A stretch of DNA of 64,000 nucleotides from Corallococcus exiguus (GTDB lineage Bacteria > Myxococcota > Myxococcia > Myxococcales > Myxococcaceae), in assembly GCF_017302975.1 (NCBI RefSeq), contig NZ_JAFIMT010000003.1; one strand, given 5' to 3'. A model generated the notes under the pieces. It ran no database searches and was not told the DNA's origin. It saw only the letters and a list, made by a program, of their open reading frames with translations. A program made the position numbers and the translations under genes. Of the stretch, positions 20,151 to 36,659 are shown in pieces; within the stretch, counting starts at the first letter, position 1, and each line of letters opens with the position of its first letter.

Positions 20151-21818
20151 TCACGGCAGGGGCACGTAGCGCAGGGGCGCCTCCCGCTGCGGCAGGCGCA
20201 CCTCCAGCTCCACCACGTCCTCCGCGCTCCAGACGGCGAACAGCTCCACCAGCCGGCCGCACAACAGGTCCACCAGCGGCAACAGCGACGCGTCCATGGG
20301 CCCGAAGCCCAGCTGGTACACGTACTTGAAGCCCGCGGCGCTCCGGGCGAAGGGCTTGGACTTCACGGACACCTCCGTGAGGGACGGCAGCAGGTCCCGG
20401 AAGTGCCGCTGCGTCCGCACGCCCAGCACATCCAGGAGGAACAGCAGGTCCTCGCGCCCCAGGAACCGCTGCGTGCGCAGCGCCAGGAGCTGCAACAGGG
20501 CCTGCTGCCCGTGCTCCACCGGGTTGTCCCCGCCGGGCGCCACCGCGCCCACCAGGCTCCACGGCACGCCTTCCAGGAAGCGGTCCGCCAGCACCGGCCG
20601 GTAGCCCCGCGCATCGAAGCGCGGCGGCAGCGGCTGGTGCCACAGGCCGTCCACGCCCAGCCGCACCGGCTTGAGGAACGCGTCCGGCATGTCCAGCGCC
20701 AGCCACGACGTGCGCGCCAGGCCCTGGCCTTCGTGCTCCAGTTCGTACGTCTCCGCGCCTCCGGAGATGGCGCCGGGACGCAGGGGCACCATGCCCTTCG
20801 GGCTCAGCTGGTACACGCCCGTGGCCGTGTTCAGCCGGAAGCCCATGGACGGATCCGGGTGCTGCACCGCGTGCCGCTCCTTCGTGCCGTCGTGCTCCAC
20901 GGGCGACGCCATGGCGCGCTGCAGGTTCACCACCGGCACCGCGTGCGCCACGAACGAGTCCGGCCCCACCACCAGCTCCGACGGCCAGCGGCCGGCGAGG
21001 CGCAGGGTCAGGGTGAAGCCCTGCCAGTTGCGGGGGGCCGGCGGGATGCGGGCCTCCAGGAACAGCTCCTGCTGCGGGAAGTGCAGCAGCTGCCGCAGCC
21101 GCTGCAACGGGTGTTCGGACGCCTCACCATCCGCGGCCACCGGCCGGGGCGAGCCGAAGCGCACCGGGCCCGAGTGCGCGTCGAAGGGCTTCACCTCCTG
21201 CTCCATCGCCCCGTCGTCGAAGCTCACGGTGGCGGAGCGCACGGCGCTCTTCAGCTGGAAGAACACCGCCAGGGACGCCCGGAAGTCGTTGAGGTGGTTG
21301 ATGTGCAGCCGCACCTCGCCCGGTGAATCGTTGCGCGGGAAGCCGCCCTCGAAGACGAGCCGCAACAGCGCGCCGTCGTCGCCCTGGCGCTCCAGCCGCG
21401 CCTGGGTGAGCAGCACGGGCAACAGCCGCAGCGGGGCCAGCGTGCGCAGGGAGAGCGGCCCGGTGGGACCGCCGCCCAGGCCCGGGTTGAGGAGGAAGGG
21501 CGTGCCCCGGGGCAGCTCCGCGGCGTCCACGAAGCGCGCGTCCGGCTCCGCGCGGAACATGGCCATCGCGGGAATGGGATTGAGCAGGTAGGCGAAGTGC
21601 TGCTGGAACAACCGCAACGTGCTCCGCTCCAGCGCGCGCTGCCCGGCCCGGCGCGTGCGCGCGGTGAACAGGGCCATGGCCTCCGTGAGCCGCCGCACGT
21701 CCGCGTCCTCGCCGTCCAGCGGCGCGGAAGGGTGCAGGGCCGTGTAGCCCAGGCGGAACTTCTCCAGCGCCTGGAGCTCCTCCAGGAACGACGCGTAGAG
21801 CGCTTCATCCATCCGCAT
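20151..21818 (-). CDS. tssF: T6SS baseplate protein TssF
   Basis: N-terminus MRMDEALYASFLEELQALEKF...DVRRLTEAMALFTARTR, 555 aa. GGAGGGGG RBS. Confidence 0.85.
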   Translation of the reverse strand: MRMDEALYASFLEELQALEKFRLGYTALHPSAPLDGEDADVRRLTEAMALFTARTRRAGQRALERSTLRLFQQHFAYLLNPIPAMAMFRAEPDARFVDAAELPRGTPFLLNPGLGGGPTGPLSLRTLAPLRLLPVLLTQARLERQGDDGALLRLVFEGGFPRNDSPGEVRLHINHLNDFRASLAVFFQLKSAVRSATVSFDDGAMEQEVKPFDAHSGPVRFGSPRPVAADGEASEHPLQRLRQLLHFPQQELFLEARIPPAPRNWQGFTLTLRLAGRWPSELVVGPDSFVAHAVPVVNLQRAMASPVEHDGTKERHAVQHPDPSMGFRLNTATGVYQLSPKGMVPLRPGAISGGAETYELEHEGQGLARTSWLALDMPDAFLKPVRLGVDGLWHQPLPPRFDARGYRPVLADRFLEGVPWSLVGAVAPGGDNPVEHGQQALLQLLALRTQRFLGREDLLFLLDVLGVRTQRHFRDLLPSLTEVSVKSKPFARSAAGFKYVYQLGFGPMDASLLPLVDLLCGRLVELFAVWSAEDVVELEVRLPQREAPLRYVPLP

Positions 21819-21821
21819 GGC

Positions 21822-35400: not shown

Positions 35401-36147
35401 GTGCGCGACCTGGGGCAGCGCGAGATTGAGCGGACCCTGGAGCGGCATTGGGACGACGCATCCAGTCGGTTCCTGCGTCCGCTGCTGAACCGCTATCCGT
35501 TCACGCCGGACGCGTCCCAGGAGGTGGATCCGGGAGACCTGGAGGTCCTGCGCAAGCAGGACGGAGCGTTCTGGGACTTCGTGACGCGGGTGCTGGCGCC
35601 CGTGTGCGAGGAGCGAGGCTCGGAGTGGGTGCCGCGAGGCGCGCTCCAGTCCCGGCTGTCGTTGCCGCAGGGGATGTTGCCCACGCTGGGGAGGCTGTCG
35701 CGGCTGGCCCGCATGTTGTGGGACCCGGAGGGAAGGCCCCGGCCCCTGATGCTGCAGGTGATGCCGTTGCCGCTGCCGAAGGCACCCACGCAGGGCAGCT
35801 TCGTGACGCTGGGTTCGCTCAAGTGCGGCAAGACGACGTTCCTCGCGTACAACCAGAGTCCGTCGTGGCAGGAGTTCCCGCTGGCGTGGTGGGACCAGCA
35901 GACGGCGTCGCTGATGCTGGAGGTGCGAGCGCCCGCGGACCAGTCCGTGCAGTACGCGTCGCTGGAGAAGTCACGTTCGGCGTGGAGCTGCTTCCGGCTG
36001 CTGGAGTCCTCGCAGTCCACGGAAGACCCGCAGCACCGCCGTTGGTCGTTGCGAGCGCGAGGTGCCCTGTCCACGGACGGGATGATGGACCTGCGCTTCG
36101 GGCTCAAGGGTGAGCCCTGGATCCCGTTCCGCGAGGTGCCGCGATGA
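32446..36147 (+). CDS. tssM: T6SS membrane-complex protein TssM (IcmF)
   Basis: 1233 aa with N-terminal TM helices and a Walker A motif, GPAGAGKS. Confidence 0.9.
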   Translation: MDVLKKLTAFIPPKWKPYALILLALLALFVPLFLVWRAKRKSAPAGGAAAPEPLAKNRLRKVREKFLAGLPLRHRVAVRDLPGVVVLGPAGAGKSRLIELDLDWKRQARQFLPSLLTDSLLQIYLGADVVAQEVSPQLLEDESPQAREALRRLWKDSFGGGQQALAVLVLDARWLQDTPPDEVRRAAQLLRGKLNLLAEVRGGAFETRVCLTHLDEREGYADFAKLLRAHLVPLRFPLPPPGQEPKLGSLLKAQEQYLALGLTALPVESFERLERFYSEGHAPFEALSRFVTALMEGQTLAYAPRLATVSLSSAEKDARDPDVLSVSAEASTAKAVHERYMHTHLRRAVLLGLAFALPLLAAYGHFAWRLGQARTRVQRFEDMVQRMRDQGQEVSGVAVQDPVLAAGQSLDSLWRAMNAWPLLRYSFTGAREDLRQRLARGIREAHIRPALEKCHRQPDTCRPEQVVYLLATLHGSREEPLGQLVLSSLKTRPTWSFVSEGSETESPGDVAALEAGRTWVTAVGLNESLVADYVVMSNPPWSAPDTPEASWARWPFPEPLTLEAQLMPWQAHLRRLQDLLANRAVEPRELERLDAELESMQDERRRLQALLDDSARFSSLPRALELLAASEARVDTSRFRGIPSTLKTVAWINDHRDALTNVLRMEEEAYLGVKAVQKMTVAELLVRDGLWLPGNGPAVLQVPVLQSTFEFRPKDGSRLLHQALLRYHEKTGRLPFGVAEGEEAVASRGGATLAADRLEFDTRLRPLVDEFTTRIKGAGLPVEEVSQRQEHVRRKVNQFAFQYRNRLFQRVSTYRFQAVIPALLSEELSRLTQPSSELVDMLRDVAQGVALEPLDGPFYESLRNAVAPFKPIATVMKPDETGNYTALNPYRALVAQMSDELNAVPRPGVVPAEATASLNGGLATGSTQLASGAAKLPELLTPLGRLAFAMMLEDDTSYLRKVDAWLDQQGLIGELRQPFRQPFLAVRDLGQREIERTLERHWDDASSRFLRPLLNRYPFTPDASQEVDPGDLEVLRKQDGAFWDFVTRVLAPVCEERGSEWVPRGALQSRLSLPQGMLPTLGRLSRLARMLWDPEGRPRPLMLQVMPLPLPKAPTQGSFVTLGSLKCGKTTFLAYNQSPSWQEFPLAWWDQQTASLMLEVRAPADQSVQYASLEKSRSAWSCFRLLESSQSTEDPQHRRWSLRARGALSTDGMMDLRFGLKGEPWIPFREVPR

Positions 36148-36659
36148 AACCGTGGGCGAGCTGTATCCCGTTGGCGCTGTGTTTCCTGGCCGCGTGCCAG
36201 CCGAGCACGCTGCACCTGAGCGTGAAGGCGCCGTCCGGGACGAACCAGGGTCGGCCGCTGTACATGCTGGTGCGCAAGGTGGACCCGAAGCAGTTCGCCG
36301 TGGAGTCCTACGGCGAGGTTTCCGCGCGCATCTTCCAACCGGACGCGGACGTGCTGCTGTCCGCGCTCATCTATCCGGGAACGCTGCAGCGCCTGAAGGT
36401 GCCGCTGCCGGACGCCGCCGCGCCGGTGGCGGTGTCGTTCCTGTTCACCGCGCCGGACGGCACCTGGCAGCAGTTCGTCAACACGCCCACGCCCGGCTCG
36501 CTGGACATCGAGCTGCTCGAAGGGCGCATCCGCACGGGAACGCAGCCCGCGGCGCCCAAGGAAGGCGACGACGCGGCGAAGCCGCCCGAGCCGCCCGCCG
36601 CCCCGAAGCCTCCACCCTCCTCTTCCGCCAAGGCCCCGGCCCTCCACGCCGAGAACTGA
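36144..36659 (+). CDS. tssJ: Small outer-membrane lipoprotein, probably TssJ, 171 aa
   Basis: Lipobox ...LAACQ. The size is right for TssJ. Its ATG overlaps the tssM stop as ATGA. A Pro-rich tail is present. Confidence 0.55.
   Translation: MKPWASCIPLALCFLAACQPSTLHLSVKAPSGTNQGRPLYMLVRKVDPKQFAVESYGEVSARIFQPDADVLLSALIYPGTLQRLKVPLPDAAAPVAVSFLFTAPDGTWQQFVNTPTPGSLDIELLEGRIRTGTQPAAPKEGDDAAKPPEPPAAPKPPPSSSAKAPALHAEN

What the first reader, a model, noticed from the sequence alone, without database searches (positions are those of the whole stretch)
20151..36659. T6SS-like cluster with non-canonical gene order and no recognisable ClpV or Hcp
The recognisable components are TssF, VgrG, TssE, TssG, a TssA-like protein, TssC, TssB, TssK, TssL, TssM and a TssJ-like protein.

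The order is unusual: tssG-tssE-vgrG-tssF instead of tssE-tssF-tssG. tssJ lies after tssM. Two unassigned genes of about 200 aa and a gp5-C-like repeat protein are embedded in the cluster.

No ClpV/TssH gene is present. Without it, sheath recycling would have to be supplied in trans or by another mechanism. No canonical Hcp is recognisable either.
Basis: partly seen in the sequence, partly recalled or inferred. Interest (0 to 1): 0.7.

Follow-up and report, generated by a model that had tools for sequence, protein, structure and literature searches.

The report
Francisella-type type VI secretion system in Corallococcus
This myxobacterial gene cluster is a complete contractile secretion machine of the unusual kind so far described only in the tularemia pathogen Francisella, which explains why it seemed to lack a tube protein (Hcp) and a recycling ATPase (ClpV).

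Summary
The cluster is real, intact and under purifying selection. It comes from Corallococcus exiguus, and its functional span (18081-45264) exceeds the reported one.

The "missing" parts are explained by its type:
- A DUF4280/IglG-like tip protein lies just outside the reported span.
- The "TssA-like" gene is an IglI-family protein. The "TssJ-like" gene is IglE-like.
- The sheath proteins are closest to IglA and IglB.

No Clp-type ATPase occurs in any frame of the 64 kb. Only 2 of 85 related loci carry one nearby, and the one I scored matches ClpB better than ClpV. Recycling by ClpB in trans, as shown in Francisella, is therefore inferred.

Unlike Francisella, the cluster keeps recognisable TssE, TssF, TssG and TssK. 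Relatives occur at 99 loci or more in Myxococcota, Desulfobacterota and a few Gammaproteobacteria. In a TssC tree they form a sister clade to IglB.

Reviews up to 2026 restrict T6SSii to Francisella. Verdict: a new variant of a known kind, of moderate to high interest.

The parts
18081..19763 (+). AMP-binding-like 560-aa protein: a degenerate adenylation fold and likely pseudoenzyme. It is a class-conserved accessory gene and sits where iglF sits relative to iglG in the Francisella island.
   Evidence: Only residues ~60-170 match AMP-binding or adenylation profiles (PF00501, 1e-12). Regular-expression searches for motifs A3, A5, A7 and A8 found nothing, and the only A10-pattern match lies at residue 167, far from the C-terminal A10 position. 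Homologs occur in 54 of 85 related loci and sit next to iglE in L002-L004. Its stop codon overlaps the start of the DUF4280 gene.
19763..20149 (+). DUF4280 PAAR-like spike-tip protein (IglG-like), 128 aa
   Evidence: PF14107, 1.8e-34. NF041248 T6SS_IglG, 3.4e-13, below the curated cut-off. Present in 45 of 85 related loci.
20151..21818 (-). TssF baseplate wedge subunit (the role of IglH in Francisella)
   Evidence: PF05947, 2.1e-20. TIGR03359, 1.2e-22, plus a weak IglH hit at 0.005. RefSeq names it TssF.
21822..23453 (-). PdpA-like central hub (gp27-like plus OB fold, no beta-helix spike), 543 aa.
23450..23836 (-). TssE (gp25-like sheath initiator), 128 aa, GTG start with an AGGAGG ribosome-binding site
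   Evidence: PF04965, 5.3e-8. TIGR03357, 4.2e-9. Start codon refined. The L003 ortholog is 53% identical.
23851..24795 (-). TssG baseplate subunit (the role of IglJ in Francisella)
   Evidence: PF06996, 2e-4, below the gathering score. The L003 ortholog also gives a weak TssG hit. UniProt names cluster members TssG. It is adjacent to the IglI-family gene.
24809..25780 (-). IglI-family protein; probably a divergent TssA-like (ImpA_N) assembly factor
   Evidence: NF041244 IglI_fam, 1.1e-68, 232 bits, above the cut-off of 100. Eight of 14 orthologs give in-register sub-threshold ImpA_N hits (E 1.7e-4 to 0.027); the window protein itself gives none. RefSeq names it an IglI family protein.
25836..26435 (+). 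IglC-like tube-family paralog 1 (199 aa)
   Evidence: Paralog of the 216-aa protein (BLASTP 5e-13). Scores 255 bits against the joint family HMM. Orthologs lie upstream of tssB in L001, L002, L004 and L005, and next to tssM/tssK in L003. dN/dS 0.30-0.49.
26494..27144 (-). IglC-like tube protein paralog 2 (216 aa), at the iglC position directly downstream of tssC
27177..28694 (-). TssC large sheath subunit, closest to IglB
   Evidence: VipB 1e-109 and VipB_2 2.5e-34. Best PDB sequence match is IglB, 422.6 bits, against 356.5 bits for V. cholerae VipB. In the tree it groups with IglB against the T6SSi sheaths.
28745..29305 (-). TssB small sheath subunit, closest to IglA (186 aa from the ATG at 29305)
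   Evidence: PF05591, 1.8e-41. Best PDB match is IglA, 99.8 bits, against 57.9 bits for M. xanthus TssB. Start refined.
29615..30868 (+). TssK baseplate subunit, canonical type
   Evidence: PF05936, 4.1e-36. TIGR03353, 2.8e-94, above the cut-off. PDB sequence hits are canonical TssK chains only, with no IglD hit.
30896..31474 (+). Small VgrG (beta-helix spike only, Francisella style), 192 aa
   Evidence: DUF2345, 2.8e-6. NF041249 T6SS_TssI_Fran, 3.6e-4. Eight of 10 orthologs hit the same model at 1.7e-8 to 2.5e-3, as the top hit in each and the only hit in five. All hits are below the cut-off.
31487..32131 (+). TssL/DotU inner-membrane subunit
   Evidence: PF09850, 9.8e-17. TIGR03349, 3.1e-13.
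32132..32442 (+). Probable small unannotated gene in the dotU-tssM gap (start codon undetermined)
   Evidence: GC3 is 0.91 in the frame that ends at 32442. Weak similarity (E 0.003-0.005) to the small gene that follows dotU in L002 and L005.
32446..36147 (+). TssM/IcmF membrane-complex subunit (the role of PdpB in Francisella)
   Evidence: IcmF_helical 1e-6 and IcmF_C 1.2e-4. TIGR03348, 2.3e-15, below the cut-off.
36144..36659 (+). IglE-like outer-membrane lipoprotein (TssJ role), with a 4-bp overlap with tssM
   Evidence: PF22361 IglE_N, 3.1e-30, above the gathering score. NF041245 T6SS_IglE, 5.8e-10. Lipobox LAAC at residues 15-18.
36669..42527 (+). 1952-aa lipoprotein with Ig/ASH repeats, in the same operon. 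Possibly a cell-contact factor; whether it belongs to the system is uncertain.
   Evidence: Many HYDIN/ASH/DUF1573 Ig-like repeats. Lipobox LTAC. It starts 9 bp after iglE and overlaps the next gene by 4 bp. Homologs (27-31% identity) were detected in 8 related loci.
42524..44284 (+). LysM plus class-3 lipase/alpha-beta hydrolase, 586 aa: candidate effector
   Evidence: Lipase_3 4.9e-7 and LysM 1.5e-4. A GHSLGG serine motif is present, and no signal-peptide-like N-terminus is visible in the sequence. Overlaps both neighbouring genes by 4 bp.
44281..45264 (+). 327-aa protein of unknown family, translationally coupled to the lipase: candidate immunity or partner protein
   Evidence: GC3 0.85. 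No Pfam, NCBIfam or PHROG hit.

Best explanation
The region encodes a complete, functional contractile type VI secretion system of the Francisella (T6SSii) architectural type, in the myxobacterium Corallococcus exiguus.

Proposed mechanism (assembly steps are inferred from homology, not shown here):
1. Membrane complex: TssL/DotU, TssM and the IglE-like lipoprotein span the envelope.
2. Baseplate: a canonical-looking wedge of TssE, TssF, TssG and TssK docks onto the membrane complex.
3. Split spike: it surrounds a PdpA-like hub trimer, a small beta-helical VgrG and a DUF4280 (IglG-like) tip.
4. Tube: IglC-type protein polymerises on the hub in place of Hcp. Two paralogs exist; one may act as initiator, cap or cargo carrier.
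5. Sheath: an IglA/IglB-like sheath assembles around the tube, probably chaperoned by the IglI-family (TssA-like) protein.
6. Firing: sheath contraction expels the tube, spike and cargo into a contacted cell.

No dedicated ClpV is encoded. I infer that the contracted sheath is disassembled by the housekeeping ClpB in trans, as shown experimentally for Francisella.

The co-transcribed LysM-lipase and its partner gene are the best effector candidates. The likely role is contact-dependent antagonism or predation.

In evolutionary terms the cluster belongs to a widespread sister lineage of the Francisella pathogenicity-island system. This lineage still keeps recognisable TssE, TssF, TssG and TssK.
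For: Francisella-type parts:
- Small VgrG: 9 of 11 family members hit the Francisella small-VgrG model.
- Tip: DUF4280/IglG-like.
- IglI family: above the curated cut-off.
- IglE_N: above Pfam's gathering score.
- Sheath: TssC and TssB are closest to IglB and IglA among solved structures.

Phylogeny:
- IglB is 38-45% identical to this class, against 30-35% to the T6SSi sheaths.
- In a neighbour-joining tree, the split of T6SSi from (class plus IglB) has 100/100 bootstrap support.

ATPase:
- No Clp-type ATPase occurs in the window.
- Only 2 of 85 related loci have one within about 10 kb.
- The L002 copy scores ClpB 1098 bits against ClpV 771 bits.
- In Francisella, ClpB colocalises with contracted sheaths and is required to disassemble them (PMC5481754).

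Integrity:
- The ORFs are intact. GC3 is 0.81-0.96.
- dN/dS is 0.17-0.75 against three relatives.
- Neighbouring genes have overlapping start and stop codons.
- The synteny blocks tssB-tssC-iglC-like(-tssK), tssM-iglE, iglI-tssG and vgrG-tssF-dotU recur in L001-L005. From my own knowledge of the island's gene order, they mirror iglABCD, pdpB-iglE, iglI-iglJ and iglH-dotU.
Against: - The baseplate proteins match canonical models. TssK passes the TIGR03353 cut-off, and no IglD hit was found by sequence search of the PDB. The cluster is therefore not a strict T6SSii member as defined on Francisella.
- Several Francisella-specific models hit only below their curated cut-offs: IglE, IglG, small VgrG and IglH.
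- The tree is neighbour-joining on 30 sequences. It lacks T6SSiii, T6SSiv, the Francisella novicida island (FNI) and several T6SSi subtypes.
- ClpB use, secretion activity, targets and effectors are all untested.
- I could not check the rest of the genome for clpB, clpV or hcp.
Confidence: 0.8

Rival explanations
1. It is a canonical T6SSi cluster that has been rearranged. Its hcp and clpV genes sit elsewhere in the genome, for example in the canonical myxobacterial T6SS locus, and the ~200-aa genes are unrelated accessory genes.
For: TssK, TssB and TssC pass the general TIGRFAM T6SS cut-offs. TssE and TssF hit the canonical models. Myxobacteria are known to have a T6SSi with Hcp (PDB 5urw appears). 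The rest of the genome could not be searched.
Against: - The ~200-aa genes are IglC-fold proteins at the iglC position and are conserved across related loci.
- Six further parts are Francisella-type: PdpA-like hub, small VgrG, DUF4280, IglI, IglE, and a sheath nearest IglA/B.
- TssC separates from seven T6SSi sheaths with 100/100 bootstrap support.
- A cluster-linked Clp ATPase is absent from 83 of 85 related loci.
Confidence: 0.07
2. It is a single-shot or slowly recycled system that needs no unfoldase, like phage tails, extracellular contractile injection systems (eCIS) or the ClpV-less T6SSiv of Amoebophilus. Contracted sheaths are diluted or degraded rather than recycled by ClpB.
For: No Clp ATPase lies in or near 83 of 85 loci of this class. 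ClpV-independent contractile systems exist (Clemens et al. 2018, PMC5924787). Nothing in the sequence shows ClpB recruitment.
Against: Among the comparators I used, the closest characterised relative, Francisella, does recycle its sheath, and uses ClpB to do so. Two related clusters carry a Clp-type AAA+ gene between their T6SS halves, and the L002 copy is ClpB-like, which suggests an unfoldase is used by this class. The system has a TssJLM-type membrane anchor, typical of reusable cell-envelope-anchored T6SSs.
Confidence: 0.1
3. It is a decaying or non-functional remnant of a T6SS that has lost Hcp and ClpV.
For: No canonical Hcp or ClpV is present. Several components match their family models only weakly.
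Against: All genes are intact and have strong coding GC3. dN/dS is below 1 for all 12 genes tested. The full set is conserved in many Corallococcus genomes and in 99 or more loci across phyla. A tube-protein equivalent is present.
Confidence: 0.02

Closest known systems
Francisella pathogenicity island T6SS (T6SSii: IglA/B, IglC, PdpA-VgrG-IglG, PdpB-DotU-IglE, IglI, ClpB in trans)
   Same: - IglC-fold tube in place of Hcp.
- Split spike: PdpA-like hub, small VgrG and a DUF4280 tip.
- IglE-type lipoprotein encoded directly after tssM.
- IglI-family protein encoded next to tssG.
- Sheath closest to IglA/IglB.
- No cluster-encoded ClpV.
- Shared gene blocks: tssB-tssC-iglC-like, tssM-iglE, iglI-tssG.

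   Different: [quoted passage not shown] In Francisella, IglD, IglH and IglJ are highly diverged and no TssE is known (PMC9600919).
- Has two IglC-like paralogs.
- Has a conserved AMP-binding-like pseudoenzyme.
- No PdpC, PdpD or AnmK homologs were recognised.
- The host is a free-living soil predator of the phylum Myxococcota, not an intracellular gammaproteobacterial pathogen.
- Its TssC forms a clade that excludes IglB (99/100 bootstraps).
Francisella novicida island (FNI, FTN_0037-0054), a second, uncharacterised atypical T6SS-like cluster
   Same: According to the literature it has a DUF4280 protein without an N-terminal extension (PMC5014421) and a recognisable TssK-like gene (PMC9600919). 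The window's 128-aa DUF4280 protein aligns only to positions 57-168 of the IglG model, so it too lacks the IglG N-terminal extension.
   Different: This could not be compared directly, because no FNI sequence was reachable with the tools. It may be the closest relative of this class.
Canonical T6SSi (e.g. V. cholerae, P. aeruginosa, M. xanthus)
   Same: Same overall machine: TssB/C sheath, TssE/F/G/K baseplate and TssL/M membrane complex, all detectable with the general models.
   Different: - No Hcp (PF05638-type) and no full-length VgrG.
- No PAAR (DUF4280 instead), no ClpV, and no TssA above threshold.
- IglE in place of TssJ.
- TssC is at most 42% identical to the eight T6SSi sheaths aligned, and under 42% in the 30 plasmid hits displayed, while all 579 plasmid T6SSi hits are below 60%.
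- Different gene order.
Extracellular contractile injection systems / phage-tail-like particles (Afp, PVC). One is encoded in the same window at 861-13683.
   Same: Contractile sheath-tube-baseplate principle. No dedicated unfoldase is known for these systems.
   Different: The finding has TssK and the TssL/M/IglE membrane complex, with T6SS-type VipA/VipB sheath proteins. The neighbouring eCIS has a phage-type sheath, a gp19 tube and baseplate J. The two clusters share no recognised gene families.

Membership tests
Type VI secretion system (any subtype) | TssB/TssC (VipA/VipB-type) contractile sheath | tested here: met
   PF05591 1.8e-41 and PF05943 1e-109. TIGR03358 and TIGR03355 both above their cut-offs.
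Type VI secretion system (any subtype) | Baseplate wedge TssE, TssF, TssG and TssK | tested here: met
   TssK is above the cut-off. TssF 2e-20, TssE 5e-8 and TssG 2e-4, the last being weak.
Type VI secretion system (any subtype) | Envelope-spanning membrane complex (TssL, TssM and a lipoprotein) | tested here: met
   DotU 1e-16, IcmF domains and IglE_N 3e-30. Lipobox present.
Type VI secretion system (any subtype) | Hcp-fold tube protein | tested here: met
T6SSii (Francisella pathogenicity island type) | IglC-type (~200 aa, two-lobed) tube protein encoded after the large sheath gene | tested here: met
T6SSii (Francisella pathogenicity island type) | Split spike: PdpA hub plus small VgrG plus DUF4280 (IglG) tip | tested here: met
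T6SSii (Francisella pathogenicity island type) | IglE lipoprotein and IglI protein | tested here: met
   IglE_N PF22361, 104.8 bits against a gathering score of 26. IglI_fam NF041244, 232 bits against a cut-off of 100.
T6SSii (Francisella pathogenicity island type) | No ClpV in the cluster; ClpB recycles the sheath | tested here: inconclusive
   Absence from the window is shown, and absence from 83 of 85 related loci. Use of ClpB cannot be tested in silico; one of the two cluster-encoded exceptions was scored and is ClpB-like.
T6SSii (Francisella pathogenicity island type) | Francisella-type diverged baseplate (IglD, IglH, IglJ; no recognisable TssE), matching the Francisella-specific equivalog models | tested here: not met
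   TssK passes the canonical TIGR03353 model and shows no IglD hit by sequence search of the PDB. The IglH model scores only 15.8 bits against a cut-off of 75. A clear TssE is present.
T6SSii (Francisella pathogenicity island type) | Sheath phylogenetically within or next to IglA/IglB | tested here: met
   It is sister to IglB rather than nested with it: T6SSi versus (class plus IglB) 100/100, and the class excluding IglB 99/100. Sampling is limited.
T6SSi (canonical) | Hcp (PF05638), full-length VgrG (Phage_GPD plus gp5 domains), PAAR, ClpV and TssJ in or near the cluster | tested here: not met
   None of these was found among the window ORFs I scanned.
Extracellular contractile injection system | Phage-type sheath and tube, baseplate J/gp6-gp7, no membrane complex | tested here: not met
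   The finding has a membrane complex and TssK. The eCIS-type genes lie in a separate cluster at 861-13683.

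The most novel reading that the evidence does not exclude
The cluster represents an undescribed, widespread sister lineage of the Francisella T6SSii. It is found in Myxococcota, Desulfobacterota and a few marine Gammaproteobacteria, and it is an evolutionary intermediate: Francisella-type tube, spike, lipoprotein and IglI, combined with a canonical TssE/F/G/K baseplate.

As a bridge it would allow orphan Francisella proteins to be assigned:
- IglI as a divergent TssA (ImpA_N) protein.
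- IglF possibly as a degenerate adenylate-forming-fold adaptor of the PAAR-like tip.
- A search path for the missing Francisella TssE.

It would also show that ClpB-serviced, Hcp-less T6SSs are used by free-living predators, not only by an intracellular pathogen.
Probability: 0.45. Interest if true: 0.75.

Novelty: new variant of a known kind. Interest (0 to 1): 0.62.

Why it matters
The reviews I read, up to August 2026, state that T6SSii is confined to Francisella and stands in a class by itself (PMC13584744, PMC12955703, PMC9600919). They also report that the Francisella TssA and TssE equivalents are unknown.

A large family of relatives in culturable, genetically tractable, non-pathogenic myxobacteria would offer three things:
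- An evolutionary bridge for assigning the orphan pathogenicity-island proteins. The link between IglI and ImpA_N is seen here; a link between IglF and the AMP-binding-like protein rests on gene position only.
- A safe model for the IglC-tube, PdpA-spike, ClpB-recycled architecture.
- A new candidate weapon in myxobacterial predation or kin discrimination. Many Corallococcus genomes appear to carry two such systems.

For genome annotation, the tube proteins, the hub, TssG and IglE of these clusters are currently named "hypothetical protein" in RefSeq.

Tried and rejected
- Foldseek against the PDB gave only noise, namely antibody Fabs at TM about 0.13.
- AFDB fold libraries were not available.
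I used the PdpA-like family instead.
- A sigma-54 -24/-12 consensus search found no site in the divergent tssB/tssK region. The 13 window-wide matches were fewer than the 28.8 expected by chance.
- The idea that PdpE is the second IglC-like paralog gained no support from the PdpE preprint, which says nothing about an Hcp-like fold. I dropped it.
- The AMP-binding-like protein is not an active acyl-CoA ligase or adenylation domain. Searches for motifs A3, A5, A7 and A8 found nothing, and the only A10-pattern match is misplaced. PDB and NCBIfam matches cover only about 80-100 N-terminal residues.
- Eight literature searches found no description of a Francisella-type T6SS in myxobacteria or Desulfobacterota. 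One 2026 paper reports T6SSii calls in Dongshaea.
- I considered and rejected three readings: an eCIS, because a membrane complex is present; a decaying remnant, because of the conservation and dN/dS data; and a rearranged T6SSi, because of the tree and the six Francisella-type parts.

Full report
**1. What is there**

The window has about 70% GC, so raw ORF lists are crowded with spurious frames. I selected genes by third-codon-position GC. The 216-aa protein is 100% identical to a Corallococcus exiguus protein. Ten window proteins were looked up, and nine are exact members of Corallococcus protein clusters.

The reported span, 20151-36659, runs exactly from the end of tssF to the end of the TssJ-like gene. 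Profile searches confirm TssF, TssE, TssG (weakly), TssC, TssB, TssK, DotU/TssL and TssM.

No Hcp, full-length VgrG, PAAR, TssJ or ClpV profile hit was found in any window ORF I scanned. A tblastn search with a ClpB-like protein found nothing in any frame (best E 1.6).

**2. The "missing" and "unassigned" parts are Francisella-type parts**

- **Lipoprotein.** The protein encoded after TssM carries the IglE_N domain (PF22361, 3e-30, above the gathering score). It also hits the IglE model (6e-10) and has a lipobox.
- **IglI.** The 323-aa "TssA-like" protein is an IglI-family protein (NF041244, 1e-68, above the curated cut-off).
- **Tube proteins.** The 216-aa and 199-aa proteins are paralogs (BLASTP 5e-13).
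  - They belong to a family of about 200-aa proteins with 242 representative clusters at E ≤ 1e-3. The named members listed are all called hypothetical.
  - An AF2 model of the 216-aa protein, built on a 52-sequence alignment, has pLDDT 82.
  - Foldseek did not recover this match, and I note that as a weakness.
- **Small VgrG.** The 192-aa repeat protein weakly matches DUF2345 and the Francisella small-VgrG model. Eight of ten orthologs hit that same model, as the top hit in each and the only hit in five.
- **Tip.** Just outside the reported span lies a DUF4280 protein (19763-20149; 2e-34, and IglG model 3e-13). DUF4280 is the PAAR-like domain of IglG (PMC5014421, PMC5349215).
- **Sheath.** TssC and TssB are closest to IglB and IglA among all solved structures: 422.6 against 356.5 bits, and 99.8 against 57.9 bits.

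**3. Relatives and classification**

Contigs carrying family members show a recurrent layout in Sorangium and four metagenome or MAG (metagenome-assembled genome) contigs. The core block is iglC-like-1, tssB, tssC, iglC-like-2, tssK, tssM and iglE, often followed by an AMP-binding-like gene. A second block is vgrG-tssF-dotU, and a third (seen in L003) is iglI-tssG-tssE-pdpA-like. From my own knowledge of the Francisella island's gene order, these blocks mirror iglABCD, pdpB-iglE, iglH-dotU and iglI-iglJ.

A scan of one genome per GTDB species with the PdpA-like family found 99 loci. They lie in:
- Myxococcota: Corallococcus, Archangium, Sorangium, Polyangium, Myxococcus, Pyxidicoccus, Cystobacter, Hyalangium and others.
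- Desulfobacterota: Syntrophus, Desulfobacteraceae, Desulfoluna, Syntrophobacteraceae.
- Gammaproteobacteria: Psychromonas and Marinibactrum.

Several Corallococcus genomes carry two divergent copies.

In a trimmed 423-column TssC alignment, IglB is 38-45% identical to this class but only 30-35% identical to eight T6SSi sheaths. A neighbour-joining tree with 100 bootstraps separates T6SSi from (class plus IglB) in 100/100 replicates. It recovers the class, excluding IglB, in 99/100.

The class is therefore sister to the Francisella system, not part of it. Unlike Francisella, it keeps baseplate proteins that canonical models recognise, and TssK passes its equivalog cut-off. For Francisella, the 2022 IglD paper reports that IglH and IglJ have no detectable non-Francisella homologs and that TssE is unidentified.

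Caveats: the tree uses a simple method and limited sampling, with no T6SSiii, T6SSiv or Francisella novicida island (FNI). The literature describes the FNI as having a TssK-like gene and an extension-less DUF4280 protein. It could be the closest known relative, but I could not obtain its sequences.

**4. ClpV**

A tblastn census of 85 related loci, each covering up to about 10 kb on either side of the marker gene, found a Clp-type ATPase in only two, L002 and L005. In both it lies between the two halves of the T6SS cluster.

I scored the L002 protein, and it matches ClpB better than ClpV (TIGR03346 1098 bits against TIGR03345 771 bits). Both scores are below the curated cut-offs. The L005 copy is 60% identical to it.

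In F. novicida, ClpB colocalises with contracted sheaths and is required to disassemble them (PMC5481754). I therefore infer that ClpB acts in trans in Corallococcus. This step is inferred, not shown. A non-recycled, single-shot mode remains a minority alternative.

**5. Other components and leads**

- **IglI and TssA.** Eight of 14 IglI-family orthologs give in-register, sub-threshold ImpA_N hits: protein residues about 31-110 against profile positions 36-118, E 1.7e-4 to 0.027. The window protein itself gives none. UniProt names some members "ImpA N-terminal domain-containing protein". The reviews I read list TssA as absent or unidentified in T6SSii.
- **AMP-binding-like protein (18081-19763).** It is conserved in 54 of 85 loci. 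Searches for adenylation motifs A3, A5, A7 and A8 found nothing, and the only A10-pattern match is misplaced. It lies immediately upstream of the DUF4280 gene, the position of iglF relative to iglG. In Francisella, IglF binds IglG. Equating the two proteins is speculation from position only.
- **Possible small gene (32132-32442).** A coding-like small ORF fills the dotU-tssM gap.
- **Downstream genes.** Downstream of iglE, and closely spaced or overlapping with one another, lie three genes:
  - a 1952-aa Ig-repeat lipoprotein, comparable to the contact-mediating lipoprotein TasL of Vibrio (PMC9040878; abstract seen);
  - a LysM plus class-3 lipase with a GHSLGG motif and no signal-peptide-like N-terminus;
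  - a 327-aa protein of unknown family.

  The lipase and its partner are the best candidates for an effector and immunity pair.
- **Selection.** All 12 cluster genes tested have dN/dS below 1 against three relatives. The fastest-evolving are the 216-aa tube paralog, DUF4280, the small VgrG and the PdpA-like hub, which are the expelled parts.

**6. Novelty**

RefSeq already names the IglI-family protein, TssF, the IcmF-domain protein, the DUF4280 protein and the "AMP-binding protein". It leaves both tube paralogs, the hub, TssG and IglE as hypothetical proteins.

Reviews and papers in the searchable library state that T6SSii is restricted to Francisella. One 2026 survey also reports T6SSii calls in Dongshaea. 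Eight literature searches found no description of Francisella-type systems in myxobacteria or Desulfobacterota. The library lacks most subscription journals, however, so I cannot exclude prior description.

I classify the finding as a new variant of a known kind. Finding that architecture, with an intermediate gene set, widely distributed outside Francisella is what makes the cluster interesting.

Noticed in passing
window 861-13683 (- strand): A separate phage-tail-like or extracellular contractile injection system cluster lies about 4 kb upstream of the T6SS's first gene (the AMP-binding-like gene at 18081). Its genes are a phage-type sheath (9387-11714), a gp19 tube (8308-8799), a CIS_tube protein (6475-7347), a LysM/tail-X protein (6186-6494), a GPD hub (4999-6273) and a 1416-aa protein with a baseplate-J domain (861-5111). 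Two unrelated contractile machines therefore sit side by side.
   Followed up: partly
window 18081-19763 (+): An AMP-binding-like 560-aa protein, annotated publicly as an AMP-binding protein or long-chain fatty acid-CoA ligase. Searches for the adenylation motifs found no credible match. It is conserved in 54 of 85 related T6SS loci and sits where iglF sits relative to iglG, so it may be a pseudoenzyme adaptor of the PAAR-like tip.
   Followed up: partly
window 32132-32442 (+): The 314-bp gap between dotU and tssM has coding-like GC3 (0.91). It is weakly similar to the small gene that follows dotU in L002 and L005, so it is probably an unannotated small gene. Its start codon was not determined.
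   Followed up: partly
window 36669-42527 (+): A 1952-aa lipoprotein made of HYDIN/ASH/DUF1573 Ig-like repeats. It starts 9 bp after iglE and overlaps the next gene. It may be a cell-contact factor, analogous to Vibrio TasL, or it may be unrelated to the T6SS.
   Followed up: no
window 42524-48831: A LysM plus class-3 lipase (42524-44284) and an overlapping 327-aa gene (44281-45264) look like an effector-partner pair. They are followed by a low-GC stretch (0.58-0.59 at 44-48 kb). That stretch holds another LysM protein (45365-46408) and ORFs of unknown family, and it may be a horizontally acquired cargo island.
   Followed up: no
L002:6826-9390 and L005:3964-6522: Two related clusters on a metagenome contig and a MAG contig carry a Clp-type AAA+ gene between their two T6SS halves. 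The L002 copy scores as ClpB (1098 bits) rather than ClpV (771 bits). The L005 copy is 60% identical to it. These may be ClpB-derived unfoldases dedicated to the T6SS.
   Followed up: partly
L006 vs L059 (C. coralloides KYC2213); also L042, L062, L071, L081-L083: Several Corallococcus genomes carry a second, paralogous system of the same class. Its PdpA-like protein is about 33% identical, and where sheath genes lie within the locus (L042, L062) its TssC is about 54% identical, to the window's.
   Followed up: partly
window 24809-25780 and orthologs in L003, L012-L085: IglI-family proteins show in-register, sub-threshold ImpA_N (TssA N-terminal) matches in 8 of 14 orthologs tested, though not in the window protein itself. 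This suggests that Francisella IglI is a divergent TssA.
   Followed up: yes
window 14367-18084 (+): Between the eCIS cluster and the T6SS lie a multi-PAS histidine kinase (14367-16853) and a 474-aa ORF (16660-18084). The ORF has a weak TraB-like hit and is conserved only in the nine closest relatives. A regulatory link to either machine was not examined.
   Followed up: no
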